Shown here piece by piece: positions 1 to 37,867 of a stretch of DNA of 37,867 bases; the stretch's first letter is position 1; each line of letters opens with the position of its first letter. The translations under genes were made by a program, and so were the position numbers. This stretch comes from a virus: IMG/VR virus record IMGVR_UViG_3300045988_120615; one strand, given 5' to 3'. The notes beneath the pieces were generated by a model. It was not told the origin of the DNA and ran no database searches. It saw only the letters and a list, made by a program, of their open reading frames with translations.

Positions 1-55
1 CTGTCTGCGTCGAGCCGAACGCGGCAGCATTACCACCTTCAGCACGGAAAAACAG
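1..55. repeat. Copy of the 72-bp tail-fibre inverted repeat; identical to 37813-37867 (assembly overlap of a circular contig)
   Basis: The first 55 nt of the window are identical to the last 55 nt. The reverse complement of this sequence also occurs at 37299-37353. Confidence 0.85.
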
Positions 56-892
56 ACCGGCGAACTGGGCGCTGATGTTTTCCCACGTGCCACCATAGAG
101 ATCGGCTGGGGCGGCCATACCGGAAAACTGTATACAATATGCTCCGACCGGCATGGCTGACGGGATGACGATGTTGAAGCCGGTGGCCGGGTTTTGGAGT
201 ACCCATTTGCCCTGCGTAGAATCGTATTGCAATATCATCCAGTATCCATTACCGGCAATATCGCCAATAGCAAGCGGTTGGTATGTCCCTTTGGTGATGG
301 TGGTGGCGGTAAGACCATCCGGACTGAACGTCGGTGTCGTTGTGGCGTTTGACGCAAGCGCACGCACGAAAACAACAAGGCCGTTCGTCAATTCGGTAAT
401 CGCAGGATCGAATGTCGCGGTAATGGCGTCAGATGTGCCTTCACCGACAGCGATATACAGCGATGAACCTTTTGCTGCATCGCCAGCCCACGGCAGCCAC
501 GAAGTGCCGATTGATTCAGGGGATTCATTGAAGTCGGTCGTATTGTTGGCAATCGCGCTGACATACGCTGATGCGCCGTCATTGGATTGCAATACCGCCC
601 CCAGTGGATAGCCGCCGATTGTTGAGGCAAAGTCTGCGTTGAAAGTCGGTAAACCACCAGATTGAGAAAACCCGATGCTCGACGAAAGCGCGAACAAAAT
701 GCCGTTCATGTCCATGCCCTGCGGCGGCAAACCGCCGGCGACAAGCGGCGTCATCGTGACAGGCGGGAAGCCCTTTTGGTACGACGCATAATTGGTCTGT
801 CCTGTTTCTGTAGATGGCGTTACCGGAATCGTGTTTTTGTCGCCCTGCGACGCAAAAGGAACCGGCATCAAAACTTGTGCTGGAACGCTCAT
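1..892 (-). CDS. Tail fibre protein, constant N-terminal/shaft part. The ORF starts at 892, runs off the window start and continues in frame at 37812 to 37601; total 1104 nt, 367 aa.
   Basis: Minus-strand translation from the ATG at 892 gives MSVPAQVLMPVPFASQGDKNTIPVTPSTETGQTNYASYQKGFPP...GMDMNGILFALSSS...GGYPLGAVLQ, a conserved phage tail-fibre N-terminal domain. There are no stops down to position 1. Frame arithmetic (892-1 and 37813-37603 are both multiples of 3) joins it to the C-terminal tip ending TAG at 37601-37603. The six-frame track omits it because it is open-ended within the window. Confidence 0.7.
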   Translation of the reverse strand, partial: MSVPAQVLMPVPFASQGDKNTIPVTPSTETGQTNYASYQKGFPPVTMTPLVAGGLPPQGMDMNGILFALSSSIGFSQSGGLPTFNADFASTIGGYPLGAVLQSNDGASAYVSAIANNTTDFNESPESIGTSWLPWAGDAAKGSSLYIAVGEGTSDAITATFDPAITELTNGLVVFVRALASNATTTPTFSPDGLTATTITKGTYQPLAIGDIAGNGYWMILQYDSTQGKWVLQNPATGFNIVIPSAMPVGAYCIQFSGMAAPADLYGGTWENISAQFAGLFFRAEGGNAAAFGSTQT

Positions 893-903
893 GTTTCACC
901 CAT

Positions 904-925
904 AAAAAAACGGGCTGTAGCCCGT
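904..925 (-). terminator. Intrinsic terminator-like hairpin plus T7 run immediately upstream of the tail-fibre start codon
   Basis: The minus strand reads aacgggctacagcccgttttttt (6-bp GC stem, 4-nt loop, 7 T). It overlaps the stop of the upstream gene and sits about 15 nt before the tail-fibre RBS/ATG. Confidence 0.45.
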
Positions 926-1548
926 TATGATTGACTGTAAAAAGTACCCTGATTAAATGGCGCGTAGCCCGGTGACGCCTCATTGAAACCAAAAGTGTTT
1001 GGCGTCGGGATTTGCAGATACTCCGCCCTTACGCCCGCTGGTCGCGGCATGACAGATGATGTGACGATAGCCCACTCATACGGCTGCAAGTAGAACTCGA
1101 ACACGTATCGCATTGCCATGTTGCCAAGGTCAAGCACATAGCACCGCTGACCGTCGAACAGATATTGAAGCAACTGGTTTAGTGTCGGCACGTTCGGTCG
1201 GCAGATGTTGGACATCGCCTTGACCATGATGAGCTTTCGGTATACATCATCTGCCAGACGGTATGTCTGCGTTGCTGGATCGCCATTTGCGAACGGTGCC
1301 TCGTTGAATGGCGTGAACGAACCATCGCCCGTGTAGAATCCGAAATTTACACCGGTGCCTTGAATCGTAAGGTACCGTTCCACACCGACAATGCGGCCCC
1401 ATATGTCAAGCCCGAATCCTTGCGCTGTATCCAGATTGACGACATTGTCGTAAAAGTCGTCGATTGTCGTTTGGAAGTCGTAATTCTGATAAATGAAATC
1501 CACCAGCTGCGACAGAATCGGGCTGGACTGATATTGAATCGGAATCAT
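925..1548 (-). CDS. Baseplate/tail protein, Mu gp48 / DUF2313-like (P2 gpI position)
   Basis: 207 aa located between the Baseplate_J-like gene and the tail fibre. The start overlaps the upstream gene. Confidence 0.45.
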   Translation of the reverse strand: MIPIQYQSSPILSQLVDFIYQNYDFQTTIDDFYDNVVNLDTAQGFGLDIWGRIVGVERYLTIQGTGVNFGFYTGDGSFTPFNEAPFANGDPATQTYRLADDVYRKLIMVKAMSNICRPNVPTLNQLLQYLFDGQRCYVLDLGNMAMRYVFEFYLQPYEWAIVTSSVMPRPAGVRAEYLQIPTPNTFGFNEASPGYAPFNQGTFYSQS

Positions 1549-2771
1549 GAGATCGTCACCTGAATGCCAGACTGTTGAATGACCGGAACCTGATCGATGC
1601 CCATCGTTACCGCGTTCTGATTCGCTTCTGACGTACCTATCTGGATTGAAATGATATTGATCTGGCTGCTGACAGCGGAAACGATCCTGTAATAGGACGA
1701 TGCGTAAATTGCGCCGCCGATTCGCGGTCTTGCGAATCCGTCAACCTGACCGTTGAACGCTGCGATGATTGCAGACTGAATCTGCGCGATGACATCAGAC
1801 GGAAGCTGCGTATTCTGCTGGATCGTGACCGCGAAAAGAATTTCGGTTGGTGTCGGGCGGTTGAACGTGATCTGGTATTCAGGGTATGGCGTTACATATG
1901 CGGAATCATCGTACACCGTTACGGTTGTGTTTCCGTTCATTCCGCAACCGATGTCCTTCTTTGTCCAGATCGTTTGGGCAACCGTATCATCATCACCGCC
2001 GACCACTCCGACATACACGCTGTGCGGCGCAAGCTCGTAGTTTGTCGCGCCATACTGGATTGTTTCGTCTGACGGATTGTCGCAAACAAAACAATCCGTC
2101 ACTTCGTCAATTTCGGACACAGCGGCGCGGATGGCTGGCGCGGTGCCAGTCGCATTGAGTGCAACAGATTCTTGCCTGCGTAACTCGAAAGCGTCCCTGC
2201 CTTCGACATCGGTTCCTGTCACGCCGGGACTTTCGTTTGTGATCGCGTCCCATCCTGGGACGGCGACTTGAATGTACACCAGCGAACCGGCTGCGCATGG
2301 AATGGCACCGCTGACCTGATTGGCAAATTGCACCGTCGCTTGACCGTTTGAGCCGAATGAAACCGCGGACAACGATTCATAGACATTGCCGGATGTGTCT
2401 CTTGCTAATGAGCCAGCCGGCAACGTATTACCCGGAATGCCGGTGCAGGTCGCACTGACGATTGTTGGTGTTCCTGATTTTCGAGTGATGAAATAGATCC
2501 TTGCCAGAGCGTCCTGAAAACGTCCGATCGCCGTGTCCGGATCGAATTGTGACAACGTGAACGCGAGACTTGCATACGCCAGCGCGATAGCCTGCGCCCG
2601 CTCCGCCGACAACACATATTGCGGCGTTGAAACAGACGTCACGTTCAGATTTCCGCCGAATGCTGCATTGATGTCTTGCAAAGTACCCGAAAGAATATCC
2701 TGCGTTTGTGGAACCGATATGCCAGTTTCCGTGATTGTTACTGGCGGAACGTTAGTTTGCAATGTTGACAT
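1545..2771 (-). CDS. Baseplate J-like protein (Mu gp47 family)
   Basis: 408 aa. The position (after the GP46-like gene, before the gp48-like gene) and size fit a Baseplate_J protein. Start and stop codons overlap those of the neighbouring genes. Confidence 0.55.
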   Translation of the reverse strand: MSTLQTNVPPVTITETGISVPQTQDILSGTLQDINAAFGGNLNVTSVSTPQYVLSAERAQAIALAYASLAFTLSQFDPDTAIGRFQDALARIYFITRKSGTPTIVSATCTGIPGNTLPAGSLARDTSGNVYESLSAVSFGSNGQATVQFANQVSGAIPCAAGSLVYIQVAVPGWDAITNESPGVTGTDVEGRDAFELRRQESVALNATGTAPAIRAAVSEIDEVTDCFVCDNPSDETIQYGATNYELAPHSVYVGVVGGDDDTVAQTIWTKKDIGCGMNGNTTVTVYDDSAYVTPYPEYQITFNRPTPTEILFAVTIQQNTQLPSDVIAQIQSAIIAAFNGQVDGFARPRIGGAIYASSYYRIVSAVSSQINIISIQIGTSEANQNAVTMGIDQVPVIQQSGIQVTIS

Positions 2772-3102
2772 TGATCGTCTCGGTTTCTGTTGTGATCTGG
2801 ATTTGTCCTGACAGCTGGCGATTCTCGAAAATCAGTATCGGAGTAGCGTCCACGACGCCCGGAACCGTTTTCGCTTCTGTGCGAAACCACTCGGTCAGCA
2901 TGGCGACCGGCGGGCGTTGACCTAATACGCTGGCCTTGTACGGGACACCACGCGATGTATCGAAAAGCGCTTCGCCTTGCCACAATCGGCAGGCTGACGC
3001 AACGTCTTGCGCGATGGCATATGGATCGCTTGCCATTGCAATGTTTCCGGACGCATCCACCGTCAAATCCCATTTTTCCGGGACGAGATAAAGAGTATTC
3101 AT
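2752..3102 (-). CDS. GP46-family baseplate protein (Mu gp46-like)
   Basis: 116 aa with WDLTVDASGNIAMASDPYAIAQDVASACRLWQGEALFDTSRG, which is typical of the GP46 family. Gene order V - gp46 - J - gp48. Confidence 0.5.
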   Translation of the reverse strand: MNTLYLVPEKWDLTVDASGNIAMASDPYAIAQDVASACRLWQGEALFDTSRGVPYKASVLGQRPPVAMLTEWFRTEAKTVPGVVDATPILIFENRQLSGQIQITTETETINVNIAN

Positions 3103-21666: not shown

Positions 21667-21988
21667 AGTTCAACCGATTTTTTTCATAAAACTCACGCGT
21701 TTCCGCATTAAAGTTTTCTAAAAATTCGTTCATTGATTGTTCTGCGCGTTTTAAAAAATTCTCATACTTTCTTTTTGTAAAGTTTTCTCTAAAGAAAATC
21801 TCTACATCAAATCCACGGAAAACCATCACTGCCGGAGGGGCCCCGCGGGATTTTATTGGCTTTTTGAATTTTCTACGTTGTCTTCGATACCAAGATATTT
21901 CGTTTTTTTGGTTCGCATCCATTCGGCTCCGTTTTTTTGGGTAATTTTTTTCTCGGTTCCTGTTCTTCATCGTTTGCCCTATATGCAT
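21641..21988 (-). CDS. Hypothetical protein in an AT-rich islet
   Basis: 115-aa ORF, possibly starting at an internal Met. The region is AT-rich relative to its flanks. Confidence 0.2.
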   Translation of the reverse strand: MHIGQTMKNRNREKNYPKKRSRMDANQKNEISWYRRQRRKFKKPIKSRGAPPAVMVFRGFDVEIFFRENFTKRKYENFLKRAEQSMNEFLENFNAETREFYEKNRLNFAAENDIV

Positions 21989-22389
21989 TCAACCAACACT
22001 TCTACCCGCGGAAAGTCGGAATATCGCTTATCGACAGTCGCATGCGATACCTTCGCATCGTCAGCGTAAACCACGCCATTCAAGGCGTCCGACACAACCT
22101 TGCCGACGTTGTCCCAGTCCGGCTTTTTTGTATGCCTGAATTCACCGGACAATGCTTTTGCCCTGACCGACTTTGTGCAGGATTTCGGTATCGGGAAAAA
22201 CGCCGTCACGGAAAGCGAAATCGCGCCCGTGAGCAGCTTTTTGCCCTTCATGGCTTTCATGGCACACAGCTTGACGATCGCTTCGTATGAGCGCGTTTTA
22301 TCGGGCGTGTAGGCGTGTCCGTTTTTCGTGAAACGCGGACGGGCTTTTGCGACTGGGGCGCCGGGAACGGAAAATCGGATACAGGTCAT
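21979..22389 (-). CDS. rusA: RusA Holliday-junction resolvase
   Basis: 136 aa with GAPVAKARPRFT...DWDNVGKVVSDALNGVVYADDAKV, the RusA signature. Confidence 0.7.
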   Translation of the reverse strand: MTCIRFSVPGAPVAKARPRFTKNGHAYTPDKTRSYEAIVKLCAMKAMKGKKLLTGAISLSVTAFFPIPKSCTKSVRAKALSGEFRHTKKPDWDNVGKVVSDALNGVVYADDAKVSHATVDKRYSDFPRVEVLVECI

Positions 22390-23152: not shown

Positions 23153-23790
23153 GCCGCCCCCAGTAACGCACGAACCTTGTCTCCCGCACGGGTTATCATC
23201 TGCGGGATATCTCCTCCCATCTGGATGACCCGTCGGGCCTTTTCCGGATCTCCGATCAACACCGGTTTACCACAATCAAAACCATGACGGCTGTTGTTGG
23301 CGTTGGCGATACCTGTCAACACCCCTTTGTATTCCGGCGTGATGCCACGTGACGCATAGCCGCGATAACGCACCTCGAACTCCTTGGCGACAAACGGCCA
23401 TTCGTCCTCGGTCTTTTTGCCGAACTCGATCCACCCTCCCATGTCATCGATGACACGATGGATTAGCGGATCATCGAACACGACATCTTGCCACGTGCCG
23501 ACCTGTCGAACTGCTTTATCGACTTTTGTCCAGGCGATCATCGCGCTGTCGGTTGACGTGCCCCCAATCATCCGGACAACGTCCGCCGGCTTTGGCATGT
23601 ATTGACCATTATCCGGGTTGACTGCGTGGCGACTTAACGCTTCGCTTATCGCTCTCAGGTCATAGTCTTTCAGGCCGTTCCACCACAGCGACAGGGCAAA
23701 CTCCGAGATGGTTTTTCCGTACAGGTCGTAAGTCGCCGATATGATTTGCCTGAATTCGTCAAAGTCCCTGTTCTGCATAATCTTCTCCAA
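23149..23790 (-). CDS. Replication-module protein downstream of the initiator (helicase-loader position; function unproven)
   Basis: 213 aa, overlapping the stop of the O-like gene. Confidence 0.3.
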   Translation of the reverse strand: MEKIMQNRDFDEFRQIISATYDLYGKTISEFALSLWWNGLKDYDLRAISEALSRHAVNPDNGQYMPKPADVVRMIGGTSTDSAMIAWTKVDKAVRQVGTWQDVVFDDPLIHRVIDDMGGWIEFGKKTEDEWPFVAKEFEVRYRGYASRGITPEYKGVLTGIANANNSRHGFDCGKPVLIGDPEKARRVIQMGGDIPQMITRAGDKVRALLGAA

Positions 23791-24598
23791 AAATCAATCG
23801 TTTAGCACGTTCTCCAGCTTCCATGTTCCGTTCGTACAGCGTTTTTTCCTGTCTGCCTCCCGGACGGTTACGCACCCAATCTGCCTTGAATCCGCGCCAG
23901 CCGTTAGCGCAAACGGTTTCCAGCACCTCCGTCAATGTCATTCCGGCTTTTTGCGCTTCCCGGATCAATCCTTTGATCGCTGTCTCCGATATCGGTGCTT
24001 TCAAGCGCTTTCGCAATTCGGCAAAGTCTCTGGCAACGTCATCAGGCACTCCATCCCGGATCAGCAGGTCGGTCGAAAACGGCGCTTGCGCCTTTTGACG
24101 GTTCCCTGATGGTTCTATTGATGGTTCATTGATGGTTATGGGTGCACGTGGTGCGGGGGTCCCCCGCATCTCCTGCGGGGGTGGGGTGCACGTGGTGCGG
24201 GGGTGGGGTGCATCTGGTGCGGGGCGCATCTCCTGCGGGGGTGCATCTGGTGCGGGGGTTGTGGATAACTCCGGCCATTCTGAAACAGGTGAAATCCGGT
24301 ATATCGTGCTTTGTCCCTTGCGCATTGTCGCGATCATGTATCCCATTTCGACAAGACGCTTGATCGCCCCCTGCACTGCACGTTCTGACAGACTTGTTTT
24401 TTTGCATAGGGTCGATATGGACGGGTAGCAATCGCCCTCATCGCTGGCGTTATCACATAGTGCGACAAAAACAAACTTCTGCGTTGTCGGCAATTCGGTT
24501 CCGAATGCCGCTGTCATCAGTTTTACGCTCATTTCTTTACCCCAACCATTCCCGATAAAAACCACCATTCCACCGTCTTCCGGTGGGCCTCTTCCCAC
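23759..24598 (-). CDS. Replication initiator (lambda O-like; N-terminal HTH, C-terminal replisome-organiser-like domain) with embedded origin iterons
   Basis: 279 aa. N-terminus: QKFVFVALCDNASDEGDCYPSISTLCKKTSLSERAVQGAIKRLVEMGYM. A Pro-rich linker is encoded by the DNA iterons. C-terminus: LIRDGVPDDVARDFAELRKRLKAPISETAIKGLIREAQKAG. Confidence 0.55.
   Translation of the reverse strand: MGRGPPEDGGMVVFIGNGWGKEMSVKLMTAAFGTELPTTQKFVFVALCDNASDEGDCYPSISTLCKKTSLSERAVQGAIKRLVEMGYMIATMRKGQSTIYRISPVSEWPELSTTPAPDAPPQEMRPAPDAPHPRTTCTPPPQEMRGTPAPRAPITINEPSIEPSGNRQKAQAPFSTDLLIRDGVPDDVARDFAELRKRLKAPISETAIKGLIREAQKAGMTLTEVLETVCANGWRGFKADWVRNRPGGRQEKTLYERNMEAGERAKRLIFGEDYAEQGL
24105..24260. repeat. Iteron cluster (putative replication origin) inside the initiator gene
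   Basis: TTGATGGTT occurs three times, GGGTGCACGTGGTGCGGGGG twice, GGTGCATCTGGTGCGGGG twice and CGCATCTCCTGCGGGGG twice, in direct orientation. Confidence 0.55.
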
Positions 24599-24828
24599 GC
24601 TTCAACGCGTTCTGCCTTGCTCAATCGGCTCCCCTGATCGATTTCCATATGGCAGTCATGGCACAGATAAGCCACTCGGAAATCATGCGCCTTGATCCCT
24701 TTCCCCTTCCCGTCCCGCGACTGATTGCTGTGAGCGGCTACAACGGTTCTGTCATTGACACGACCACATGCAAAACAGCAAGGCGAGAATTTCGCAAAAT
24801 CAAGTAACTTTTTATTCCGGTAGATCAC
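24529..24828 (-). CDS. DUF1364-like zinc/HNH-like small protein
   Basis: 99 aa with CCFACG...AAHSNQSRDGKGKGIKAHDFRVAYLCHDCH. Confidence 0.35.
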   Translation of the reverse strand: MIYRNKKLLDFAKFSPCCFACGRVNDRTVVAAHSNQSRDGKGKGIKAHDFRVAYLCHDCHMEIDQGSRLSKAERVEAWEEAHRKTVEWWFLSGMVGVKK

Positions 24829-25286
24829 GCAAACATCCTTTCGGAAATGCCAAACTGGACACCAAGAGACGCTCCATAGGCGTATATTTGTTCGAGATAA
24901 AGAGAAAACCCTTTTGTTGTCAGATCGCCCGTTGACGCCTTCAGAATCCGTTCACCAGAAGGCAAATACCGCCATTTCTGATAACCTTCCCGCGTAAGTT
25001 CCGTATCGGCTTCTTCTGGCAAAAATTCCCGTTTGAAATGCTCGTGCCAGACATCGGCCGAGTACGTCTGACCGTTGACGTATGCCTGACTCGCAATGTC
25101 ACGCAGCGGCCCTGCCCACATCAGCGCGTTCTGGTCTTTGTTTCGGCTTTTGATTTGTTCGCCGATCCTGATTTCAATCGGGTTGGCAGCGTCAACCGGA
25201 ACAGTCTTGAGCACCGCAATCGCGGTACCAAGCTGCGCCGGACTGACGACAAGGATTTTCCGTGTAGGGAACCGAGCGCGTTTCAT
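24825..25286 (-). CDS. ninB: NinB/Orf-family recombination protein
   Basis: The start is taken at the ATG at 25286, which has a GGAG RBS and an ATGA overlap with the upstream gene. IRIGEQIKSRNKDQNALMWAGPLRDIASQ...WHEHFKREFL parallels lambda NinB (QERNRSLDQNRKLWACLGDVSRQ...). Confidence 0.6.
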   Translation of the reverse strand: MKRARFPTRKILVVSPAQLGTAIAVLKTVPVDAANPIEIRIGEQIKSRNKDQNALMWAGPLRDIASQAYVNGQTYSADVWHEHFKREFLPEEADTELTREGYQKWRYLPSGERILKASTGDLTTKGFSLYLEQIYAYGASLGVQFGISERMFA

Positions 25287-25585
25287 GGTTTTCTCCAGAT
25301 TTTGATTTCGCGGCGATGACCGGCTGTGCGAGTGGACAGCGCACGCCAACCGGTGTCGATTAACCCATGTTCCTTGATCTGCTGGTGTAACAGGCCGCCC
25401 CAAGCATTCGGGTGATGCGGTTCAGGTAATCCGTCTTCTTCTGCGAACTGGCGGAACATGTCAGAGGTGAACTCCCTGTTTCCGATATGGACAAGGAAGC
25501 GGCGGAAACATGCTTCTGCGCTGGCCGTCCAGTCGGATTGCAGAACAGAAGAAATGCCGGCTTGTTTCTTTGCTTCTCCAGTCAT
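25283..25585 (-). CDS. Hypothetical early protein
   Basis: 100-aa ORF with a GGAGG RBS, translationally coupled to ninB. Confidence 0.4.
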   Translation of the reverse strand: MTGEAKKQAGISSVLQSDWTASAEACFRRFLVHIGNREFTSDMFRQFAEEDGLPEPHHPNAWGGLLHQQIKEHGLIDTGWRALSTRTAGHRREIKIWRKP

Positions 25586-26831: not shown

Positions 26832-27350
26832 CTAGCCTTTGATCATGACCCATTTCAGAATGACCACAAGCAAACCAAAAATGGGCGCGATGGACGAAAT
26901 GATTAGAACCGCATTGAATGTATTGACCATCTTCTGACATGCCCTGTTGATTTCTCTGTAAGCATCGCATAGCCAAATCAACCTTGTTCTTTTGACGCGT
27001 TTCAGTTCATAGCTGTCCTGATACAAAATATCTGGCGGGTAGAATGCTGCTGCCCGCCCCTTCCCGAACAAGCAAGAAAACATCATGAAAGCGCCGCAAG
27101 CAAACCAGACTGCGGCGACACAAAGCATTTCGTAAAAAAATGCGGACTTCAAGCCATCGGCAATCAACCACATCGTTACACCCGCGACGCCCGTCACAAT
27201 AAGACTTGTCAACTTCTGGCATCGCTCCCTGATATTCCAGAAAGATTGTTCCTGCCGCTTCACTCCCTCTTCCCCTATTCTCTCAAGAAAATCAACAAAT
27301 TCATCCGACGCATTGTCGAAGTAATCTTCTTTCAATTCTTTAGCATCCAT
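26832..27350 (-). CDS. Multi-pass membrane protein beside the repressor (candidate superinfection-exclusion / abortive-infection function)
   Basis: 172 aa with 3-4 hydrophobic helices and a GAGGATGAG RBS. It sits in an AT-rich islet, has its own divergent promoter region, and is convergent with cI. Confidence 0.45.
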   Translation of the reverse strand: MDAKELKEDYFDNASDEFVDFLERIGEEGVKRQEQSFWNIRERCQKLTSLIVTGVAGVTMWLIADGLKSAFFYEMLCVAAVWFACGAFMMFSCLFGKGRAAAFYPPDILYQDSYELKRVKRTRLIWLCDAYREINRACQKMVNTFNAVLIISSIAPIFGLLVVILKWVMIKG

Positions 27351-27989: not shown

Positions 27990-28165
27990 ATATCTCTCCC
28001 CTTGCAATGGATGGTGACAAGACCGTTGGACAGTCTTGCATGATGGAAATCGATGGCTTGTACAAGAAAGGTGTTATCAGCGAAACCGAGCGGGATGCTT
28101 TGATGGATCGGGTTTTTATGGCTGTCGATGATATTTGCAAACAGATTATTGAAGGACGGGAATGA
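27986..28165 (+). CDS. Hypothetical small protein
   Basis: 59 aa from the internal ATG (MNISPLAMDGDK...). It is coupled to the upstream peptide and overlaps the erf start. Confidence 0.35.
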   Translation: MNISPLAMDGDKTVGQSCMMEIDGLYKKGVISETERDALMDRVFMAVDDICKQIIEGRE

Positions 28166-28758
28166 ATGTTTTTGAAAAGCTAAATGCTGTTCGGAGTGAA
28201 TTTCTGAAGTCCGAACACAAGAAAAGCGGATACAACAAGTTTTCCGACTACCGCTATTTCGAGCTGGCGGATTTCCTCCCGGAAGTGCTGATGCTGTGCG
28301 CCAAAAACGGCTTGGGCGGTCATTTCGCCGCGGCAAATGGATTGGCGACGCTGGAAGTGGTCAATATCGAACAGCCTGAGGAAAAAATCATTTTTTCGTG
28401 CCCTCTCGGTTCCGCAAATTTAAAAGCGTGCCATGAGGTGCAGAACATAGGGGCCTGCATTACTTACGCCCGCCGGTATCTCTGGGGATGCGTTGTCGAA
28501 CTAATCGAAAACGATGCCCTGGACGCAATAACAGGGAAGGAAGAGAAGTCTCCAATAAAAAAGGAAAAATCGGATTACGACGATCTGGAAAACCCGGAAG
28601 ACTGGACGGATGTGTTTACGGCGATGGGGGACGCATCGACACTGGATGAGCTGCGGGCGATTTTCGGTCCGGCATGGAAAAAAGCAAAAGGCAAAGACAA
28701 GGACGATATCAAAAAAGAATATGACCGCCTGAAAGCGATGATGGAGGAAAAACAATGA
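28162..28758 (+). CDS. erf: ERF-family single-strand annealing recombinase
   Basis: 198 aa. [20 protein letters not shown] and [29 protein letters not shown] parallel P22 Erf (FGKYKYRSCEDIL; TSSYARKYCLNGLFGIDDAKDAD). Confidence 0.75.
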
Positions 28759-29156
28759 GTATCAATAAAGCCATCATTATCGGATTCTGCGGCCGTGATC
28801 CGGAAATACGATATATGCCGAATGGCGATCAGATCACAAACATTTCTGTCGCCACAACGGAAAGCTGGATAGACAAATCCACCGGGGAAAAGAAAGAACT
28901 AACGGAATGGCATCGTATCACTTTTTACCGAAAACTGGCTGAAATCGCCGGACAGTATCTGAAAAAAGGGGCGCAGGTTTATGTGGAAGGACGGCTGAAA
29001 ACACGGAAGTACACAGACAAAAATGGCATAGAGCGTTACCAGACTGAAATCATCGCCGATCAGATGCAGATGCTTGGCCAAAAGCATGACGGTCAGCAAA
29101 CAAAGCGAAATACGTATCAGGCAGGTAAAGACGGTTCAGACGATATTCCTTTTTGA
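28755..29156 (+). CDS. ssb: Single-stranded DNA-binding protein
   Basis: 133 aa with an OB-fold N-terminus ([39 protein letters not shown]) and an acidic C-terminal tail DDIPF. Confidence 0.85.
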
Positions 29157-29166: not shown

Positions 29167-29589
29167 ATGAGACAAGACAAACGCGCTCTTTTTCAGCGTA
29201 TGCAGCAAATCCAGTCATGGAACGGAAAGCTGGATGAGGATGAAAAACGGGATTTGTCTCTTTTCGCCTGGCTTTCTCTGGATTGGGCGAAACGGGAACC
29301 GAACAGGCAGGCTGTTTTGAATATCGTTTCGGTCTGCAATCTGGCATTGGTTCTTGCGAACAAGGAATATCCGAAAGGTTATATGGGTGAAGCGAACACA
29401 GCATTCGCTGTCGTGCTTGCCAACTTGAAATTACTGATTTCCAGAGGAAAGGAAAAAGGAACGTGGTCTCTGAATGGAGACCTTATCCGGAACCTGCCGG
29501 TTGTTCTGTCTCTGCACGATCGTCAACTAACAGAAGTCAGCCGGAAAGTCATGGAGGCTTGTGTCAATTATGTCCGGGAGAATGTATGA
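29167..29589 (+). CDS. Hypothetical early protein
   Basis: 140-aa ORF coupled to ssb and Gp157. Confidence 0.4.
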   Translation: MRQDKRALFQRMQQIQSWNGKLDEDEKRDLSLFAWLSLDWAKREPNRQAVLNIVSVCNLALVLANKEYPKGYMGEANTAFAVVLANLKLLISRGKEKGTWSLNGDLIRNLPVVLSLHDRQLTEVSRKVMEACVNYVRENV

Positions 29590-30083
29590 GTAACTTGTAC
29601 AAGCTGTCTGCCGAAGTGGCCGCACTGAAAGAAAAACTGGAAGCGTCCGATCTGGATGCACAAACAATTGCCGACACGCTGGAAGCGGAAAGTTTCGATT
29701 TCGAGGAAAAATGCAAAGCTCTGGGCTATGTCGTCAAAGAGTTTGAAAGCAAGATCATGAGCCTTGAAGATGCATATGACGAAATGTGGCAGCGGAAAGT
29801 CCGTTTTGAAAACAAGCGAAAAAGCCTGCTTGAGTATTTGCAGGCGTGCATGACGATTGCCGGAGTTAAAAAAGTCGAGGGCGTGGAATTTGATATCGTT
29901 ATCCGCAAGAACCCGCACGCCGTGAAGATCATCGATGAAGGACTTGTGCCGGTATCGTACTGGAAAATCCCGGAACCGGCTCCGGCCAGACTGGACAGGA
30001 AGTCAATCCTGAAAGACCTGAAGGACGGCAAAAGCGTCCCTGGCTGTCAACTGGAACAGACCGAACGGGTGGAAATCAGATGA
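29586..30083 (+). CDS. Siphovirus Gp157-family protein
   Basis: 165 aa from the ATG at 29586 (ATGA overlap). It has an N-terminal coiled coil and then ...GVEFDIVIRKNPHAVKIIDEGLVPVSYWKIPEP. The family is typically found next to erf/ssb. Confidence 0.5.
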   Translation: MSNLYKLSAEVAALKEKLEASDLDAQTIADTLEAESFDFEEKCKALGYVVKEFESKIMSLEDAYDEMWQRKVRFENKRKSLLEYLQACMTIAGVKKVEGVEFDIVIRKNPHAVKIIDEGLVPVSYWKIPEPAPARLDRKSILKDLKDGKSVPGCQLEQTERVEIR

Positions 30084-32767: not shown

Positions 32768-32945
32768 TTTTTTACCAAAAACATACGAAGAGATAGAAGA
32801 TTTTGTTGGTCTAAATTTTATATACCGGGAAGAGAAAGATGGAGAAATATTTTTCAAACTGTCAGCACATGATCTTTTGTCCTCATTTAGGGACTTGAAG
32901 GATGCGATTGGAGAGAAAAATGATAATGGTGTACGTGCAATATAA
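32754..32945 (+). CDS. Hypothetical small protein
   Basis: 63-aa ORF at the end of the AT-rich island. Confidence 0.3.
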   Translation: MKPTDFLPKTYEEIEDFVGLNFIYREEKDGEIFFKLSAHDLLSSFRDLKDAIGEKNDNGVRAI

Positions 32946-33299
32946 GGACAGACCAGATGTCTGCGGGACGGCTTTCGGTGGTGTTATGGACGAATTTCTG
33001 AATCAGGATGAACTGGCCTTTTTAACCGGAAGGACAAAAAAATCCGCACAAATTCGGTGGCTGACGAACTGGGGATACCGTTCCAGCGTTTTCAGTTTCG
33101 CGATTTACGCGCCAAAGCGGCAACAGACATAAGGGACATTTACGGCATCGTCGAAGCATCTAACCTGCTGGGACACACCAACACCAGAACGACGGAAATC
33201 TACATACGACAGCAAAAAGGCAAGACGGTAAGACCGGTTATGGCGAAACAGGTGTTTCGCCATGAAGACGCAAAGAAAGTCGGGAATGATGATAAGTAA
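32902..33299 (+). pseudogene. int: Remnant of a lambda-type tyrosine integrase (C-terminal ~130 codons only, frameshifted)
   Basis: The second frame (33057-33299) reads ADELGIPFQRFQFRDLRAKAATDIRDIYGIVEASNLLGHTNTRTTEIYIRQQ. This matches the lambda Int C-terminus (TFHELRSLSARLY...LLGHKSDTMASQYRDD), including the catalytic Tyr. The upstream part is in another frame; the A7 run at 33035-33041 is the likely shift site. The N-terminal two-thirds, carrying the catalytic Arg/Lys, is absent. Confidence 0.55.
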
Positions 33300-33309
33300 T
33301 TGATTTAAT

Positions 33310-33359
33310 TGGCCTGCCCTAGTGGATTCGAACCACTGACCTACGGCTTAGAAGGCCGT
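33310..33359 (-). tRNA. 3-prime ~50-nt fragment of a tRNA-Arg(UCU) gene: anticodon stem-loop, variable loop, T arm, acceptor 3-prime strand and CCA. Putative attP core.
   Basis: The minus strand reads acggc-cttctaa-gccgt-aggtc-agtgg-ttcgaat-ccact-agggcag-g-cca. The anticodon is TCT with U33 and A37, and the T-loop is canonical TTCGAAT. No matching 5-prime acceptor strand or D arm lies upstream, so this is a fragment, as expected for an att core in a tRNA-targeting phage. Confidence 0.5.
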
Positions 33360-33395
33360 TTACAAATTATTTAAAATCAATAGGTTAGTTAAATT

Positions 33396-33473: not shown

Positions 33474-33509
33474 TTTGATCTGAAAAAATAAGCCTTCAAG
33501 CCGGTTTTT

Positions 33510-33968: not shown

Positions 33969-34140
33969 TTTTTCAGTTATTCGGTTTTTCCTTATAGCTG
34001 GACAGGTTCTTTAAAGCATTTTCGTTCTCTAAATTCTTCCTGCTTTCCCTCGTTCCAGTTCTGCACCGGTCGGTGGTACCCCATCACCCGCGTCCAGACT
34101 TCGCATGGCGTCCGTTTTTCCCGTGGCAATTCTTCTCTTG

Positions 34141-34389
34141 TCATTTCGCTTCTCCCGTGAAATGCTTGTTTTTACGTATTCTGCTGATCTTCCATCCGCC
34201 CTCAAACCCGACACAATCGGCGATGAAATCCCATACATCAGAGGCTATTTCGATGAGACAGTCAGGTACAAATTCGCGGGCCATTATGTCCGCTCCGTCC
34301 ATTCCGTCAAAATTGATGTACGCCGGCACGCAACCACAGAAAAGCCCTGTGTACTCGTATTGCGTTCTCAATTCTTTTATCTTGCTCAT
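34141..34389 (-). CDS. Hypothetical small protein between the HNH and Rz genes (uncertain)
   Basis: 82 aa from the internal ATG (MSKIKELRTQYEYTGLFCGCVPAYINFDGMDGADIMAREF...). No recognisable motif. Confidence 0.2.
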   Translation of the reverse strand: MSKIKELRTQYEYTGLFCGCVPAYINFDGMDGADIMAREFVPDCLIEIASDVWDFIADCVGFEGGWKISRIRKNKHFTGEAK

Positions 34390-34500
34390 TTCATCCCAAT
34401 ACACATTTTGTATTCCGCTTCCCGCCGATTGACCAGCCCAGGCAAGACCTTGCCGCCCGCACGGTTCCAGCGCCTGATTTCCGCGCACGCGCCGGCTTGT

Positions 34501-35184
34501 TTAATTTGTTGGTAATTTTCCGGAACATATTGACCTTCGCAAATGAGCTGCTTTTATTTTTAGCTTTGTTTCTTCACTCATTGGACCGCGCTTTTTTCCT
34601 TTTTGAGATTCCCAATATTTTTTGTATCTTGCGCGTTTCTCGTCTGTCATTGGCCCATAATTCGGGTTCTTTTCACCACGAATTTTTGAATATATTTTGT
34701 TCTTTTTAACTGGGTCTGATAAAAGCTTTCTCCGTGCCTCAATAGATGCCTGTATCTGTTCTCTGCTAGGCTTCCATCCACTCGCTTTTCTTGTAGCCGC
34801 TATTTTTTCCCTTACCTCTTTTGGCATTTCTCGATTTTTCCATGCCGCTCTGCCTTTCTCCGCCATATCGCGCATGTTGTCAGCGTTCGTTCCGACAAAT
34901 AGATGTTTAGGGTTTACGCATGACGGGTTGTCGCAACGATGACAAACAAAAATCCCTTCATGTATTTCTCCGAAAAATGCCTCATATGATATTCTGTGCG
35001 CTAATAATATTTTGTTACAGATATTCAACACACCATATCCTGCTTTTGTTTTACCGCCATTCCACTCCCAACATTCGTTTTCTCCTTTGACATGTGTTCT
35101 TCTTAAAATGCGACATTTTAGAGAACAATATTTCATTCTGTACGGACCTTCAAAATTCGTCCCACAATATCTGCATACTGGCAT
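34501..35184 (-). CDS. HNH homing endonuclease with NUMOD3-like C-terminal repeats
   Basis: 227 aa: CWEWNGGKTKAGYGV...LAHRISYEAFFGEIHEGIFVCHRCDNPSCVNPKHLFVGTNADN, followed by repeated ...E(V/T)R(E/K)KI(A/K)A... modules. The gene is markedly AT-rich relative to its flanks. Confidence 0.7.
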   Translation of the reverse strand: MPVCRYCGTNFEGPYRMKYCSLKCRILRRTHVKGENECWEWNGGKTKAGYGVLNICNKILLAHRISYEAFFGEIHEGIFVCHRCDNPSCVNPKHLFVGTNADNMRDMAEKGRAAWKNREMPKEVREKIAATRKASGWKPSREQIQASIEARRKLLSDPVKKNKIYSKIRGEKNPNYGPMTDEKRARYKKYWESQKGKKRGPMSEETKLKIKAAHLRRSICSGKLPTN

Positions 35185-35228
35185 AAAATCACATATGTTT
35201 TATAACTGACTAACGCGACAATATTACA

Positions 35229-35958: not shown

Positions 35959-36539
35959 CCTCTTTCCTTCCACGGGTTGATGCTGCACACAAACATCGCC
36001 GTATAGTCAGGTATGACAAATGCCGGATTCTCGGCATGCTGAATGCGGTACTTGCACGCACTCTGCAATTTCCAGCCAAGATAAACGCGCAGACACCGCC
36101 CGGAAAACGTTGGCCAGATCACGTAAAGCATCCATCGCGCCTTGATCGGATTGCGGGACGTGGTCGCAAACCAAATGCCCGGATGAAACGGATCGTTGTC
36201 CGTCTCGCTGTCTCCGCATTGCAATAGCTCATCGTCCGAACCGATGAACGTGCTAAATACCGTCCATCGCCATCCGTATGCTTTGTTCCGCCATAGCCAT
36301 GCGACACGCTGAATGTACATGCCGATTTTCGGATGCGCGGCAACAAACCCCGCCCACCGATCGAAATGTCCGCTGTCCCCCTCAATAGGATTGTCAGGCG
36401 TGAGCCAGAGACGCAGCGGGTTTTTGTCGGACAATGTGACATCGCCCTGTCCATCGGCGAACAGGGCGATTATCGGTGCGAGTGGAAAAGCGAGAAGACA
36501 GACGATTGTAGTGAGTGGCAGGTATAGCAGCCAGATCAT
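35955..36539 (-). CDS. Membrane-anchored hypothetical protein between tfa and the lysis genes (moron position)
   Basis: 194 aa with an N-terminal signal/anchor (MIWLLYLPLTTIVCLLAFPLAPIIALFA) and a Trp-rich body. It has ATGA overlaps with both neighbours. Confidence 0.4.
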   Translation of the reverse strand: MIWLLYLPLTTIVCLLAFPLAPIIALFADGQGDVTLSDKNPLRLWLTPDNPIEGDSGHFDRWAGFVAAHPKIGMYIQRVAWLWRNKAYGWRWTVFSTFIGSDDELLQCGDSETDNDPFHPGIWFATTSRNPIKARWMLYVIWPTFSGRCLRVYLGWKLQSACKYRIQHAENPAFVIPDYTAMFVCSINPWKERG

Positions 36540-37273
36540 ACCGCTGCGTCCTCGTATGGTTTAACCCACAGTTCGGACTGTTTCTGACCGGCCAGCGCAC
36601 AGGCTCTTGCAAGCTGCTCATAGCTGACGCTTGCGATTGTGTTATCTGCCAGCACCCAGTCGGTCTTTTCGCTCATCTGAATGCCGGACAGCTGTGCAGA
36701 CAGCACTTTTCTTGCCATGCGGTCTTGTGCCTTTTCGTCTCCATCAAATACCATACCGTCCACTTCGACGGTGATGCGGGAGACAGCTTCGGCGCGATCC
36801 GTCTTGGCTTCCGACATGGCGACTTCCGCGGCTTTGTCATCGTCCAGCACCCATTGCCCGGAGACGGCCTTGTATGCCGGGCCGGGTTGTTTGCCGGTCA
36901 TTTCGATCAGTCCTTCCTGGGGCCAGTAGCCGAAATTCCCGTCCCGATCGAACGTCTTTCTGACTTTGGTGGCATCGAATGATCCCTCAAGTGCGTAGGT
37001 TTTGGGTGGGTATTTTGTGTCGATTTCCGACTGTTCCATGCGTTGGAATTCGTTGTCGTCGGCATTGATTTTGTAGCCTTCCGGCAGATCGATGATTCCT
37101 TCCGATACCTGTTGAGACAGGGGTTTCAGGCCGGTCAGATCGTCTTTCAATGCCGCGAAAGGTAGTCCGACATACCCCGGAAATCCGCTCGGGACTTCGA
37201 TGGCGTTTTCCGGTTTTTTGGCAGAGCAACTGTGTTTTGTGATTACTCCATTATCGATGATGATGTATTCCAT
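36536..37273 (-). CDS. Tail fibre assembly protein (Tfa/gpG/U-like chaperone), located outside the invertible segment
   Basis: 245 aa. The C-terminal ...EKTDWVLADNTIASVSYEQLARACALAGQKQSELWVKPYEDA matches the Tfa C-terminal consensus. It has an AGAGGA RBS and lies 25 nt downstream of IR-L. Confidence 0.6.
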   Translation of the reverse strand: MEYIIIDNGVITKHSCSAKKPENAIEVPSGFPGYVGLPFAALKDDLTGLKPLSQQVSEGIIDLPEGYKINADDNEFQRMEQSEIDTKYPPKTYALEGSFDATKVRKTFDRDGNFGYWPQEGLIEMTGKQPGPAYKAVSGQWVLDDDKAAEVAMSEAKTDRAEAVSRITVEVDGMVFDGDEKAQDRMARKVLSAQLSGIQMSEKTDWVLADNTIASVSYEQLARACALAGQKQSELWVKPYEDAAV

Positions 37274-37298
37274 GTTTTTTCCTCTTTGTGGGGAGTGG

Positions 37299-37370
37299 CT
37301 GTTTTTCCGTGCTGAAGGTGGTAATGCTGCCGCGTTCGGCTCGACGCAGACAGACGGGGCACCGAATATT
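37299..37370. repeat. Left inverted repeat (IR-L, 72 bp) of the tail-fibre tip segment
   Basis: It is the reverse complement of 37796-37867 with one mismatch (37805 C versus T). In both orientations it encodes the junction peptide LFFRAEGGNAAAFGSTQTDGAPNI. Confidence 0.85.
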
Positions 37371-37604
37371 TATGGTAGTGTTTCTTTCGGTGTATATAAC
37401 GATTCCGCGGGGGCTGCACCTCATAACCCAATTGGTGCTTTCGGTATCGGGGCGGCAGAACTTACATGGCTGAGTCAAGGCGAAAATCAAAGATCAGCGC
37501 CAACGTATTTCGATTTTTATGCCAGCAGAGTTGACAGTAGATACAACTTACCCGAAGTGAGGACGGTTAACAGTACTATCCGTGTCTGGAAAAGGACAGC
37601 CTAA
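37371..37604 (+). other. Silent alternative tail-fibre C-terminal tip cassette (Sv-prime-like). It has no promoter, RBS or start of its own and would be expressed only after inversion or conversion.
   Basis: The + frame continuing from IR-L reads ...GAPNI-YGSVSFGVYNDSAGAAPHNPIGAFGIGAAELTWLSQGENQRSAPTYFDFYASRVDSRYNLPEVRTVNSTIRVWKRTA-stop (TAA at 37602-37604). It is homologous to, but diverged from, the expressed tip. The upstream part of track ORF 37200-37604 is antisense to the tfa start and is not a real N-terminus. Confidence 0.6.
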
Positions 37605-37867
37605 GCAGTGCGTTTCCAGATGCGGACGGTGCTGTTGTAAGGGCGTACTTCAGCCAGAACATATTTCCCGTTGCTATTTGAGGCGACAAAATTGATTTGA
37701 GCAGCACCGCGTGTCGCGAAGTTCCAGCCCGCGCCACCTACATTGTAAAATGCCCCCGATGCATATCCACCATCATTAACACCGATTGATCCTGTAATAT
37801 TCGGCGCCCCGTCTGTCTGCGTCGAGCCGAACGCGGCAGCATTACCACCTTCAGCACGGAAAAACAG
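37601..37867 (-). CDS. Tail fibre protein, currently expressed C-terminal receptor-binding tip. It continues from 1-892 across the circular junction.
   Basis: The reverse-complement translation reads LFFRAEGGNAAAFGSTQTDGAPNITGSIGVNDGGYASGAFYNVGGAGWNFATRGAAQINFVASNSNGKYVLAEVRPYNSTVRIWKRTA-stop (TAG, complement at 37601-37603). It is in frame with the ORF that starts at 892. Confidence 0.7.
   Translation of the reverse strand: MFFRAEGGNAAAFGSTQTDGAPNITGSIGVNDGGYASGAFYNVGGAGWNFATRGAAQINFVASNSNGKYVLAEVRPYNSTVRIWKRTA
37796..37867. repeat. Right inverted repeat (IR-R, 72 bp). Positions 37813-37867 are duplicated at 1-55.
   Basis: See IR-L. Together the two repeats bracket a 425-bp segment (37371-37795) that holds the two tail-to-tail tip cassettes. 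Confidence 0.85.

What the first reader, a model, noticed from the sequence alone, without database searches (positions are those of the whole stretch)
1..37867. No invertase, and no intact recombinase of any kind, is encoded for the tip switch
The ORF track and manual scanning show no Gin/Cin/Pin/Hin-type serine recombinase; there is no N-terminal Ser-nucleophile motif followed by a C-terminal HTH. The only tyrosine recombinase is the truncated integrase remnant at 32902-33299.

The repeats are long for gix/hix-type crossover sites (72 bp, against 26-34 bp for those sites) and show no obvious internal dyad symmetry. Switching must therefore rely on one of two things: a host-encoded invertase acting in trans, or RecA-type homologous recombination or gene conversion between the 72-bp repeats. 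Gene conversion would be helped by the second block of near-identity at the cassette 3-prime ends. The system could be a pilE/pilS-like cassette-conversion device rather than a classical invertase switch.
Basis: inference. Interest (0 to 1): 0.6.

Follow-up and report, generated by a model that had tools for sequence, protein, structure and literature searches.

The report
Tail-fibre tip switch without an invertase
A complete 37.8-kb gut phage genome carries a flip-flop DNA switch that swaps the tip of its tail fibre, and both states occur in nature although the phage encodes no invertase, so the flip most likely runs on ordinary homologous recombination between two 72-base inverted repeats.

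Summary
The central observation holds. The window is a closed circle (37,812 bp plus a 55-bp overlap). Pfam/PHROG scans, tblastn and six-frame HMM searches find no serine recombinase. The only tyrosine-recombinase trace is the last ~80 aa of an integrase, left by a clean ~1-kb deletion.

Two details are overstated. The phage does encode general recombination proteins (Erf, SSB, NinB, RusA, Gp157). The 3' "near-identity" of the cassettes exists only at protein level (30/48 nt identical, longest run 8).

The switch does flip. L180 and L178 are 100% identical apart from an inverted segment. L170 is the inverted isomer of the window at 97% identity. The predicted inverted-state fibre of the window exists with one residue changed.

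Unrelated phages with the same tail-to-tail tip design have a Gin-like invertase next to 23-40-bp repeats. This lineage has a chaperone-like gene there and 72-80-bp repeats with no hix-like dyad. Its two arms co-vary within each phage, with three haplotypes among 97-98% identical phages, which points to gene conversion.

Best reading (about 0.55): homology-driven reciprocal inversion. Rival (about 0.22): an invertase acting in trans. pilS-like conversion is disfavoured. I rate it a new variant of a known kind.

The parts
37299..37370 (.). Left (silent-side) arm of the inverted repeat. Read on the + strand it encodes LFFRAEGGNAAAFGSTQTDGAPNI at the head of the silent tip.
   Evidence: I1: 72 nt, 99% complementary; sequence; arm comparison.
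37796..37867 (.). Right (expressed-side) arm of the inverted repeat. 37813-37867 repeats 1-55 because the contig is circular, so on the circle the arm is 37796-37812 plus 1-55.
37371..37795 (.). Invertible segment of 425 nt holding two convergent tip cassettes whose stop codons overlap (TAA 37602-37604 on +, TAG 37601-37603 on -).
   Evidence: It is inverted in L170 relative to the window while the flanks are colinear.
1..892 (-). Tail-fibre gene, constant N-terminal part (ATG at 892). It continues across the contig junction to 37601.
   Evidence: Homologues P0002-P0071. The upstream neighbours are DUF2612 and Baseplate_J.
37601..37795 (-). Expressed tip A (64 aa, TGSIGVNDGG...RIWKRTA).
   Evidence: The exact 367-aa fibre is also on a JGI contig of 37,829 bp.
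37371..37604 (+). Silent tip B (77 aa, YGSVSFGVYNDSAG...RVWKRTA). It has no start codon of its own context and becomes the fibre's C-terminus after inversion.
   Evidence: It is expressed in L170/P0002 and in P0124.
36536..37273 (-). DUF4376 tail-fibre-assembly-like gene. It lies 25 nt outside the left arm, in the place where related switches carry their invertase.
   Evidence: Relatives without a silent cassette have the fibre stop 12-13 nt before this gene.
33057..33299 (+). Integrase remnant: the last ~80 aa only (RxxxxxxxLLGH...Y region).
   Evidence: Pfam Phage_integrase positions 121-170 of 172; E 2e-30 against an integrase HMM; ~1009-bp deletion relative to L172, which has an intact 373-aa integrase.
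32902..33132 (+). Truncated, frameshifted DUF4224 gene, fused by the deletion to the integrase remnant.
   Evidence: DUF4224 positions 1-29 of 45.
28162..28758 (+). Erf-like single-strand annealing protein, a candidate catalyst of short-homology recombination.
   Evidence: phrog_155, E 7e-18.
28755..29156 (+). Single-strand DNA-binding protein.
29463..30083 (+). Gp157 / 'Mu Gam-like end protection' protein.
24825..25403 (-). NinB/Orf recombination mediator.
21979..22389 (-). RusA Holliday-junction resolvase.

Best explanation
ANATOMY (shown)
- The fibre gene has a constant part that ends in a 72-nt stretch coding LFFRAEGGNAAAFGSTQTDGAPNI.
- An inverted copy of that stretch heads a promoterless second tip. 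This copy sits tail-to-tail behind the expressed tip, just before the chaperone-like gene.

MECHANISM (inferred)
- Reciprocal exchange between the two arms flips the 425-nt segment and fuses the other tip to the constant part.
- No dedicated site-specific recombinase is involved.
- The exchange is carried out by general homologous recombination acting on the 62-80 nt of perfect identity. Candidate enzymes are host RecA/RuvABC and/or the phage's own Erf-SSB-NinB-RusA module during replication.
- Heteroduplex repair during these exchanges keeps the two arms identical. That identity in turn keeps the switch working.

STATUS OF EACH STEP
- Shown: the anatomy, the absence of an invertase, the natural existence of both states, and the co-variation of the arms.
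- Inferred: that homology-driven exchange is what causes the inversion, and which enzymes do it.
For: 1. NO INVERTASE IN A CLOSED GENOME
   -.
   - 13 independent assemblies of the same phage show the same gene order, with a short DUF4224 fragment and no integrase or invertase.

2. BOTH STATES EXIST
   - L180 matches L178 at 100% over 1-997 on the plus strand and over 918-1485 on the minus strand, so it is an exact inversion isomer. L180 was found by predicting the inverted fibre protein and looking it up exactly.
   - L170 is colinear with the window at 97.2% and 97.7% in the flanks. The 571 nt between the outer repeat ends match on the minus strand at 95.8%.
   - P0124, from a 37,819-bp JGI contig, equals the window's predicted inverted-state fibre except for D87A.

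3. CONTRAST WITH INVERTASE-DRIVEN RELATIVES
   - In unrelated phages with the same tail-to-tail tip design, a Gin-like serine recombinase gene sits directly next to the silent cassette (L106, L152, L155, L157, L159, L164).
   - The repeats measured in four of them (L106, L152, L157, L159) are 23-40 nt.
   - In this lineage the repeats are 72-80 nt.

4. THE ARMS CO-VARY
   - The window, L181, L182 and L170 are 97-98% identical phages with three repeat haplotypes: 1-1, 1-2 and 2-2.
   - In each phage both arms carry the same haplotype.
   - L172 (73/73) and L176-L179 (80/80) also have identical arms.
   - Arms differ by 2.4 sites on average within a phage and 11.2 between phages (permutation p about 0.002).
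   - In L182 the arm identity extends about 5 nt further than in the window, into the first codons of the silent tip, which I read as a conversion tract that ran on.
   - Variable tract ends and mosaic haplotypes are what homology-driven exchange leaves. A fixed 2-bp crossover does not leave them.

5. NO SITE SIGNATURE: no hix/gix similarity or dyad in or around the repeat beyond shuffled controls.

6. ENZYMES ON BOARD: the phage carries a lambda-like general recombination module.

7. KNOWN THRESHOLDS (my knowledge): phage annealing systems work on about 35-50 nt of homology, and RecA-dependent exchange needs about 25-30 nt of perfect identity.

8. PRECEDENT: pneumococcal hsdS inversions at the longer repeats persist without the local recombinase PsrA (PMC4948785).
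Against: - 62-80 nt is short for efficient RecA-mediated exchange, so the rate may be low.
- L001 and L171 keep the design with arms that differ at 5 of 72 positions. Their longest identical runs are 29 and 40 nt, near the lower limit for homologous exchange.
- Long homogenised repeats can coexist with an invertase. From my knowledge, P1's C segment does this, so arm co-variation does not exclude a recombinase acting in trans.
- The module clearly shares its design with invertase-driven switches.
- Orientation calls come from short-read assemblies. The window's 55-nt overlap suggests k=55, shorter than the 62-nt exact repeat, so each orientation rests on the assembler's read-pair resolution, which I could not inspect.
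- No reads or experiments were available.
Confidence: 0.55

Rival explanations
1. A site-specific invertase supplied in trans flips the segment. It would be encoded by the host chromosome or by a co-resident prophage. The crossover sites would lie in or at the outer edge of the repeats. The long repeats would simply be conserved coding sequence kept alike by occasional gene conversion.
For: - The same tail-to-tail tip design is driven by adjacent Gin-like invertases in other phages.
- Gin, Cin, Pin and Hin complement one another in trans (my knowledge).
- Invertible regions with no nearby recombinase are known in bacteria (PMC9881135, introduction).
- The outer boundary of the repeat is sharp and identical in two phage lineages.
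Against: - No hix/gix-like site or dyad in the repeat or its flanks.
- The repeat DNA bears no resemblance to the 'ATAGAAAAATCGGGCGTTTTGAGTAAGCAG' repeats of the invertase-bearing relatives.
- No invertase within 10 kb in any of about 130 related fibre loci, including Oxalobacter prophages.
- Known Gin-family systems need an enhancer in cis, which lies inside the invertase gene (my knowledge). That gene is absent here.
- A phage whose switching depends on a gene it does not carry would lose the switch in most hosts. Yet the repeats stay perfect in many samples.
Confidence: 0.22
2. There is no programmed switching. The silent cassette is a by-product of mosaic recombination among fibre genes. 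The inverted isomers reflect rare accidental events, or assembler choices, rather than a working bet-hedging device.
For: - Fibre C-termini in this family are highly mosaic.
- Some close relatives lack the silent cassette.
- L001 and L171 have imperfect arms and the same orientation.
- Short-read assemblers can mis-orient a segment between repeats longer than k.
Against: - Both cassettes are intact open reading frames in every genome seen.
- Arms are perfect or nearly perfect in 9 of 11 genomes despite 9-15% divergence between phages.
- L180 and L178 differ by nothing except the inversion, so the event is recent.
- Isomers occur in two phage lineages and three tip pairs.
- A separate switch shows both states in one metagenome project (L162 and L166).
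Confidence: 0.13
3. One of the phage's uncharacterised proteins is a recombinase of an unrecognised type that acts on the repeats. Examples are the 191-aa ORF at 21094-21666 and the 172-aa ORF at 26835-27350.
For: About a dozen ORFs have no Pfam or PHROG function.
Against: - No similarity to any recombinase family or solved structure.
- None of these ORFs lies near the switch.
- The second phage lineage with the same switch (L176-L179) shares the fibre and chaperone-like genes. I did not compare its early-gene content with the window's.
Confidence: 0.05

Closest known systems
Phage Mu G segment / Gin (also e14 Pin, Salmonella Hin)
   Same: - A constant fibre N-terminus is fused to one of two oppositely oriented C-terminal cassettes by inversion between repeats inside the coding sequence.
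- The purpose is a change of host range.
   Different: - Mu encodes Gin next to the segment, uses 34-bp repeats holding 26-bp dyad gix sites, needs a cis enhancer, and carries the chaperone genes (U/U') inside the segment.
- Here there is no invertase and no dyad site.
- The repeats are 72-80 nt and the chaperone-like gene lies outside.
- Only 64-77 aa are swapped.
Phage P1 C segment / Cin
   Same: Long inverted repeats (0.62 kb) made of fibre coding sequence flank the invertible part. The repeats are kept alike.
   Different: P1 has cin and cix sites at the outer repeat ends. Neither is present here.
Gin-like-invertase tip switches found here in unrelated gut phages (L106, L152, L155, L157, L159, L164)
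   Same: - The same tail-to-tail arrangement of two tips ending in ...(I/V)WKRTA with overlapping stops.
- The repeat sits at the same place in the fibre, just after FFRA.GG.
   Different: - Those carry a roughly 200-aa serine recombinase gene directly beside the silent cassette.
- Their repeats are 23-40 nt (measured in L106, L152, L157, L159) and unrelated in sequence.
Campylobacter fetus sap S-layer nested inversion (recA-dependent; my knowledge: Dworkin and Blaser 1997)
   Same: - Programmed inversion between conserved 5' coding regions of alternative cassettes.
- No dedicated invertase; it depends on general recombination.
   Different: - The repeats there are about 600 bp.
- It is a bacterial chromosome locus and moves a promoter.
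- recA dependence was shown experimentally there. Here it is inferred.
Streptococcus pneumoniae hsdS (ivr/Spn556II) inversions at the longer repeats (PMC4948785)
   Same: Gene-altering inversions at repeats of about 85-300 bp continue without the local recombinase PsrA.
   Different: - That locus also has a tyrosine recombinase acting on a 15-bp repeat.
- Deleting recA alone did not stop those inversions, so the mechanism there is unresolved too.
Neisseria pilE/pilS gene conversion
   Same: A silent, promoterless cassette serves as a reservoir for the variable part of a surface structure.
   Different: - pilS donates non-reciprocally and stays unchanged.
- Here the cassettes swap places reciprocally, and there is no 3' DNA homology.

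Membership tests
Gin/Hin/Cin/Pin-type invertible fibre segment | Small serine recombinase (catalytic Ser near the N-terminus, C-terminal HTH) encoded in or beside the segment | tested here: not met
   tblastn best E 0.55; six-frame HMM best E 0.65; no Resolvase hit in the Pfam/PHROG scans; closed circular genome.
Gin/Hin/Cin/Pin-type invertible fibre segment | 26-bp imperfect-dyad crossover sites (hix/gix/cix-like) at the repeat | tested here: not met
   Best match 13-15 of 26 against a shuffled mean of about 13. Best internal dyad 7 of 10. A site for an unknown enzyme cannot be excluded.
Gin/Hin/Cin/Pin-type invertible fibre segment | Alternative fibre C-termini in opposite orientation joined to one constant N-terminus | tested here: met
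Gin/Hin/Cin/Pin-type invertible fibre segment | Both orientations found in nature | tested here: met
   L180 vs L178; L170 vs the window; P0124. These are assemblies, not reads.
Gin/Hin/Cin/Pin-type invertible fibre segment | Fis-dependent enhancer in cis | not testable with these tools
   In known systems the enhancer lies in the 5' part of the invertase gene, which is absent here.
Shufflon / Rci-type tyrosine-recombinase switch | Dedicated tyrosine recombinase plus short (about 19-bp) sfx-type repeats, usually several segments | tested here: not met
   Only an 80-aa integrase tail remains. There is one segment with 72-nt repeats.
Homology-driven (general-recombination) flip-flop inversion, as in C. 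fetus sap | Repeats are stretches of conserved coding sequence long enough for homologous pairing, with no dedicated recombinase | tested here: met
   62-80 nt of perfect identity; no invertase (see above).
Homology-driven (general-recombination) flip-flop inversion, as in C. fetus sap | Concerted evolution of the two arms, with mosaic haplotypes and variable tract ends | tested here: met
Homology-driven (general-recombination) flip-flop inversion, as in C. fetus sap | Inversion depends on recA or phage recombination genes | not testable with these tools
   This needs genetics. The phage does encode Erf, SSB, NinB and RusA.
pilE/pilS-type cassette gene conversion | Non-reciprocal copying from an unchanged silent donor, anchored by homology on both sides | tested here: not met
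   The isomers are reciprocal. The 3' ends are 30/48 identical with a longest run of 8 nt.
Diversity-generating retroelement | Reverse transcriptase plus template and variable direct repeats | tested here: not met
   No reverse transcriptase among the Pfam hits that were listed or among the ORFs scanned individually. The repeats are inverted, not direct.

The most novel reading that the evidence does not exclude
This phage lineage has replaced a dedicated invertase with its own general recombination module (Erf annealing protein, SSB, NinB, RusA). The repeat arms have lengthened to 72-80 nt to suit that machinery and are kept identical by the conversion the process itself produces. Host-range switching would then be coupled to phage replication rather than to an invertase. 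That would make it a recombinase-free, self-maintaining programmed switch in a virus.
Probability: 0.3. Interest if true: 0.75.

Novelty: new variant of a known kind. Interest (0 to 1): 0.6.

Why it matters
- Invertible tail-fibre segments are the textbook case of site-specific inversion, and every characterised phage example carries its own invertase.
- This switch keeps the same design, demonstrably exists in both states, and has no invertase anywhere in a closed genome. That suggests programmed host-range variation can run on general recombination alone.
- Searches that use a nearby recombinase gene as a criterion for programmed inversions would then miss this class.
- It gives a simple, testable system (a 570-bp cassette) for asking how much homology a phage needs to build a reliable switch.
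- It concerns phages whose fibre relatives sit in Oxalobacter genomes. Oxalobacter is a gut genus of clinical interest, so the switch bears on how such phages track receptor variation in that host.

Tried and rejected
- Megablast of 25 kb against 50,697 GenBank phages: no match, so no annotated relative was available.
- ARAGORN: no tRNA gene. By eye there is a tRNA 3' half on the - strand around 33305-33355.
- Exact look-ups of the JGI proteins P0002 and P0007 for their contigs: not on record.
- Exact look-up of the window's predicted inverted fibre and of L170's and L172's predicted inverted fibres: not in the collection. The one-residue variant P0124 and the L178 prediction were found.
- PDB sequence searches of the 191-aa and 172-aa unknown ORFs and of the chaperone-like protein: nothing meaningful.
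- Integrase as the invertase: rejected for this lineage. Only its last 80 aa survive, yet the repeats stay perfect and isomers exist.
- HNH endonuclease (34501-35184) as the driver: rejected. It is absent from at least one otherwise identical contig (L015) and lies 2 kb away.
- Contig circularity as an artefact of the inverted repeat: rejected. The 37.2 kb between the arms is assembled continuously, and the 425-nt segment closes the circle.
- Contig breaks at the repeat in 13 assemblies: not usable as evidence of mixed orientation. A repeat longer than k breaks contigs anyway.
- I did not run structure prediction. It would not have separated the hypotheses.

Full report
WHAT THE WINDOW IS

The first 55 bases equal the last 55, so the contig is a closed circle of 37,812 bp. 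It is a small myovirus with an E217/Pam3-type tail and baseplate. The families found are DUF3383 sheath, E217_Gp32, Baseplate_J and DUF2612. It also has a lambda-like early region:
- CI repressor with an S24 peptidase domain, and Cro
- O-like initiator
- NinB and RusA
- Erf-like annealing protein, SSB and Gp157

Its lysis genes include an Rz spanin, so the host is Gram-negative. The closest fibre relatives in species genomes are prophages of Oxalobacter, plus a 'Proteobacteria' MAG. The samples are human gut. Oxalobacter or a near relative is the probable host. This is an inference.

THE SWITCH

The inverted repeat is 37299-37370 and 37796-37867, 72 nt with one mismatch and 425 nt between the arms. 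The right arm crosses the contig junction.

The tail-fibre gene runs on the - strand from ATG 892 through position 1 and on from 37812 to a stop at 37601 (367 aa). The repeat encodes LFFRAEGGNAAAFGSTQTDGAPNI. After it comes tip A (64 aa). On the + strand the left arm heads tip B (77 aa). The two tips meet tail to tail with overlapping stop codons. Twenty-five bases outside the left arm begins a DUF4376 chaperone-like gene.

Relatives without the silent cassette have the fibre stop 12-13 nt before that gene. The cassette is therefore an insertion of about 330 nt.

IS THERE A RECOMBINASE?

No serine recombinase was found by any of these tests:
- tblastn with Hin, Gin and gamma-delta resolvase against the circularised genome: nothing below E 0.5.
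- An HMM built from those three plus five invertases recovered beside related switches, run against every six-frame fragment of 25 aa or more: best E 0.65.
- Pfam and PHROG scans of the selected ORFs: no Resolvase, transposase, IS110/Piv-type or intact integrase.

The only tyrosine-recombinase signal is 33012/33057-33299, which matches the last 50 positions of the Pfam model. Comparison with L172, a relative with an intact 373-aa integrase preceded by DUF4224, shows a clean deletion of about 1009 bp in the window. Thirteen independent assemblies carrying the identical chaperone-like gene show the same gene order downstream of the switch. In the longer ones only a short DUF4224 fragment follows the Rz gene, and no integrase is called.

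'No recombinase of any kind' is too strong. Erf, NinB and RusA are recombination proteins and are intact.

DOES IT FLIP?

Four lines of evidence say it does.
1. L170, a 9.7-kb human-gut contig, is colinear with the window at 97.2% upstream and 97.7% downstream. The 571 nt from outer repeat end to outer repeat end match on the opposite strand at 95.8%. L170 expresses tip B and keeps tip A silent.
2. I predicted the fibre protein that inversion would create in several genomes and looked each up by exact sequence.
   - The prediction for L178, a second phage lineage with 57% fibre identity and 80-nt perfect arms, exists exactly.
   - Its contig, L180, matches L178 at 100% over 1-997 on the same strand and at 100% over 918-1485 on the opposite strand. 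Its silent cassette is the tip that L178 expresses.
3. P0124, from a 37,819-bp JGI contig, is the window's predicted inverted-state fibre with one substitution.
4. L001 and L171 express B and keep C silent, while L002 and L176-L179 express C and keep B silent.

Both cassettes are always retained and simply change places. The event is therefore reciprocal inversion, not one-way conversion.

One caveat applies. These are short-read assemblies. Where the assembler's k is shorter than the repeat, the orientation rests on read-pair resolution that I could not inspect.

HOW THE SAME DESIGN WORKS ELSEWHERE

A DNA pattern for the tail-to-tail ...WKRTA stop junction found 23 viral and 19 metagenome loci. 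Most belong to unrelated phages.

In six of them (L106, L152, L155, L157, L159, L164) a Gin-like serine recombinase gene lies directly beside the silent cassette. The repeats I measured in four of them are 23-40 nt. Some have an A-tract/T-tract dyad by eye. The design therefore normally comes with its own invertase.

In the window's lineage that position is taken by the chaperone-like gene, and the repeats are two to three times longer. No invertase lies within 10 kb of the fibre gene in any of about 130 related loci.

WHAT THE ARMS SAY

Four phages are 97-98% identical overall: the window, L181, L182 and L170. Their repeats come in three haplotypes, defined by a 2-nt marker (AA or GC) and a block of seven sites. 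The haplotypes are 1-1 (window), 1-2 (L181) and 2-2 (L182, L170). In every phage both arms carry the same haplotype.

L172 (73/73) and L176-L179 (80/80) also have identical arms of further types. Across five genomes the arms differ by 2.4 sites within a phage and 11.2 between phages (permutation p about 0.002). The genomes are related, so this p-value is only indicative.

In L182 the identity between the arms extends about 5 nt further than in the window, into the first codons of the silent tip. I read this as a conversion tract that ran past the usual inner repeat boundary. The single mismatch in the window travels with the tip in the window and in L170, but has been erased in L181 and L182.

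Copying between arms with variable end points is what heteroduplex repair during homologous exchange produces. A serine invertase exchanges strands at a fixed 2-bp core and cannot homogenise 40 or more flanking bases. The repeat shows no hix/gix similarity and no dyad above shuffled controls.

MECHANISM

The best reading is that the flip is a homology-driven reciprocal exchange between the arms. General recombination would carry it out: the host's RecA pathway, or the phage's Erf-SSB-NinB-RusA set, which in lambda-like phages works on a few tens of bases (my knowledge). The identity of the arms would be both a requirement and a by-product of the process. I put this at about 0.55.

The main rival is an invertase supplied in trans, at about 0.22. 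In its favour:
- The design's relatives use invertases.
- Gin-family enzymes cross-complement.
- P1 shows that long homogenised repeats can coexist with an invertase.

Against it:
- There is no recognisable site.
- There is no cis enhancer.
- No invertase turned up in any related locus.
- It is odd for a phage to depend on a gene it does not carry.

A non-programmed by-product (about 0.13) is hard to square with perfect arms in most genomes and with isomers that differ by nothing else. A hidden recombinase among the unknown ORFs (about 0.05) has no support.

The isomers are reciprocal. The cassette 3' ends share only 30 of 48 nt, with a longest run of 8, so conversion of a tip would have no 3' anchor.

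COMPARISON AND NOVELTY

It works like Mu G or P1 C in outcome: tip swapping by inversion within the fibre gene. It fails two defining features of that family, the invertase and the crossover site.

In mechanism it most resembles two systems:
- The recA-dependent sap inversions of Campylobacter fetus (my knowledge).
- The pneumococcal hsdS inversions at longer repeats, which persist without the local recombinase (PMC4948785).

Invertible regions with no nearby recombinase have been noted in bacteria, and DUF2612 neighbours are enriched near predicted programmed inversions (PMC9881135). I found no description of an invertase-less fibre switch in a complete phage genome. I rate it a new variant of a known kind, with interest about 0.6.

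Noticed in passing
window 32902-33360: A temperate-looking phage (CI repressor, Cro) has lost its integrase through a clean ~1009-bp deletion with 8 nt of overlap at the junction. It keeps what looks by eye like an attP-type 3' half of a tRNA-Arg(UCU) gene on the - strand (about 33305-33355). The deleted form recurs in 13 assemblies from different samples. How it persists (lytic only, episomal, or helped in trans) is unexplained.
   Followed up: partly
window 33992-34144 (- strand): A 50-aa ORF in the lysis cluster matches only the last 33 positions of the anaerobic ribonucleotide reductase NrdD model (E 4e-10), including an RVMGY motif that resembles the glycyl-radical site. It is conserved in relatives (L010-L014; a 61-aa version in L176). 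A free-standing NrdD C-terminal peptide in a phage is unexplained.
   Followed up: no
window 24140-24279: Four copies of a roughly 41-nt GGGTGCA(C/T)(G/C)TGGTGCGGGG-type direct repeat lie inside the O-like replication initiator gene (23759-24598). These are probably origin iterons, as in lambda.
   Followed up: no
window 34501-35184 (- strand); L015: An HNH_3/NUMOD3 homing-type endonuclease sits between the lysozyme and Rz genes. It is absent from an otherwise identical contig (L015), which is consistent with a mobile homing gene.
   Followed up: partly
L106 5112-5720 and L155 (about 2737-3069), compared with L152 and L157: In two invertase-bearing relatives, the right repeat arm overlaps the 5' end of the invertase gene. 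The assembled ORF lacks the N-terminal YIRVST catalytic-serine segment that L152 and L157 have. Either the invertase is truncated there or its own start is affected by the inversion.
   Followed up: partly
L160 558-595 and 1413-1450; L098, L111, L113: Some unrelated phages carry two tail-to-tail tip pairs or several inverted-repeat partners. These look like multi-cassette, shufflon-like fibre systems.
   Followed up: no
L162 and L166 (both WFLX01 metagenome project): Two contigs from one project carry the same pair of tips of another (GC 56-58%) phage in opposite expressed/silent arrangement. Both orientations therefore appear in one data set.
   Followed up: partly
L171 13550-15189: A close relative with the same switch has an IS605-family insertion (TnpB-like 400 aa plus a Y1 transposase) in its lysis region.
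   Followed up: no
L084 4723-5641: A distant relative has a 71-nt, 92% inverted repeat pair 777 nt apart, about 5 kb upstream of its fibre gene. This may be a different invertible element.
   Followed up: no
window 37290-37298 and L170, L172, L176-L179: The silent cassette, a 15-nt linker (CCACTCCCCACAAAG on the chaperone-sense strand) and the start of the chaperone-like gene are shared by two phage lineages whose fibres are only 57% identical. This suggests the module moves horizontally as a unit.
   Followed up: partly
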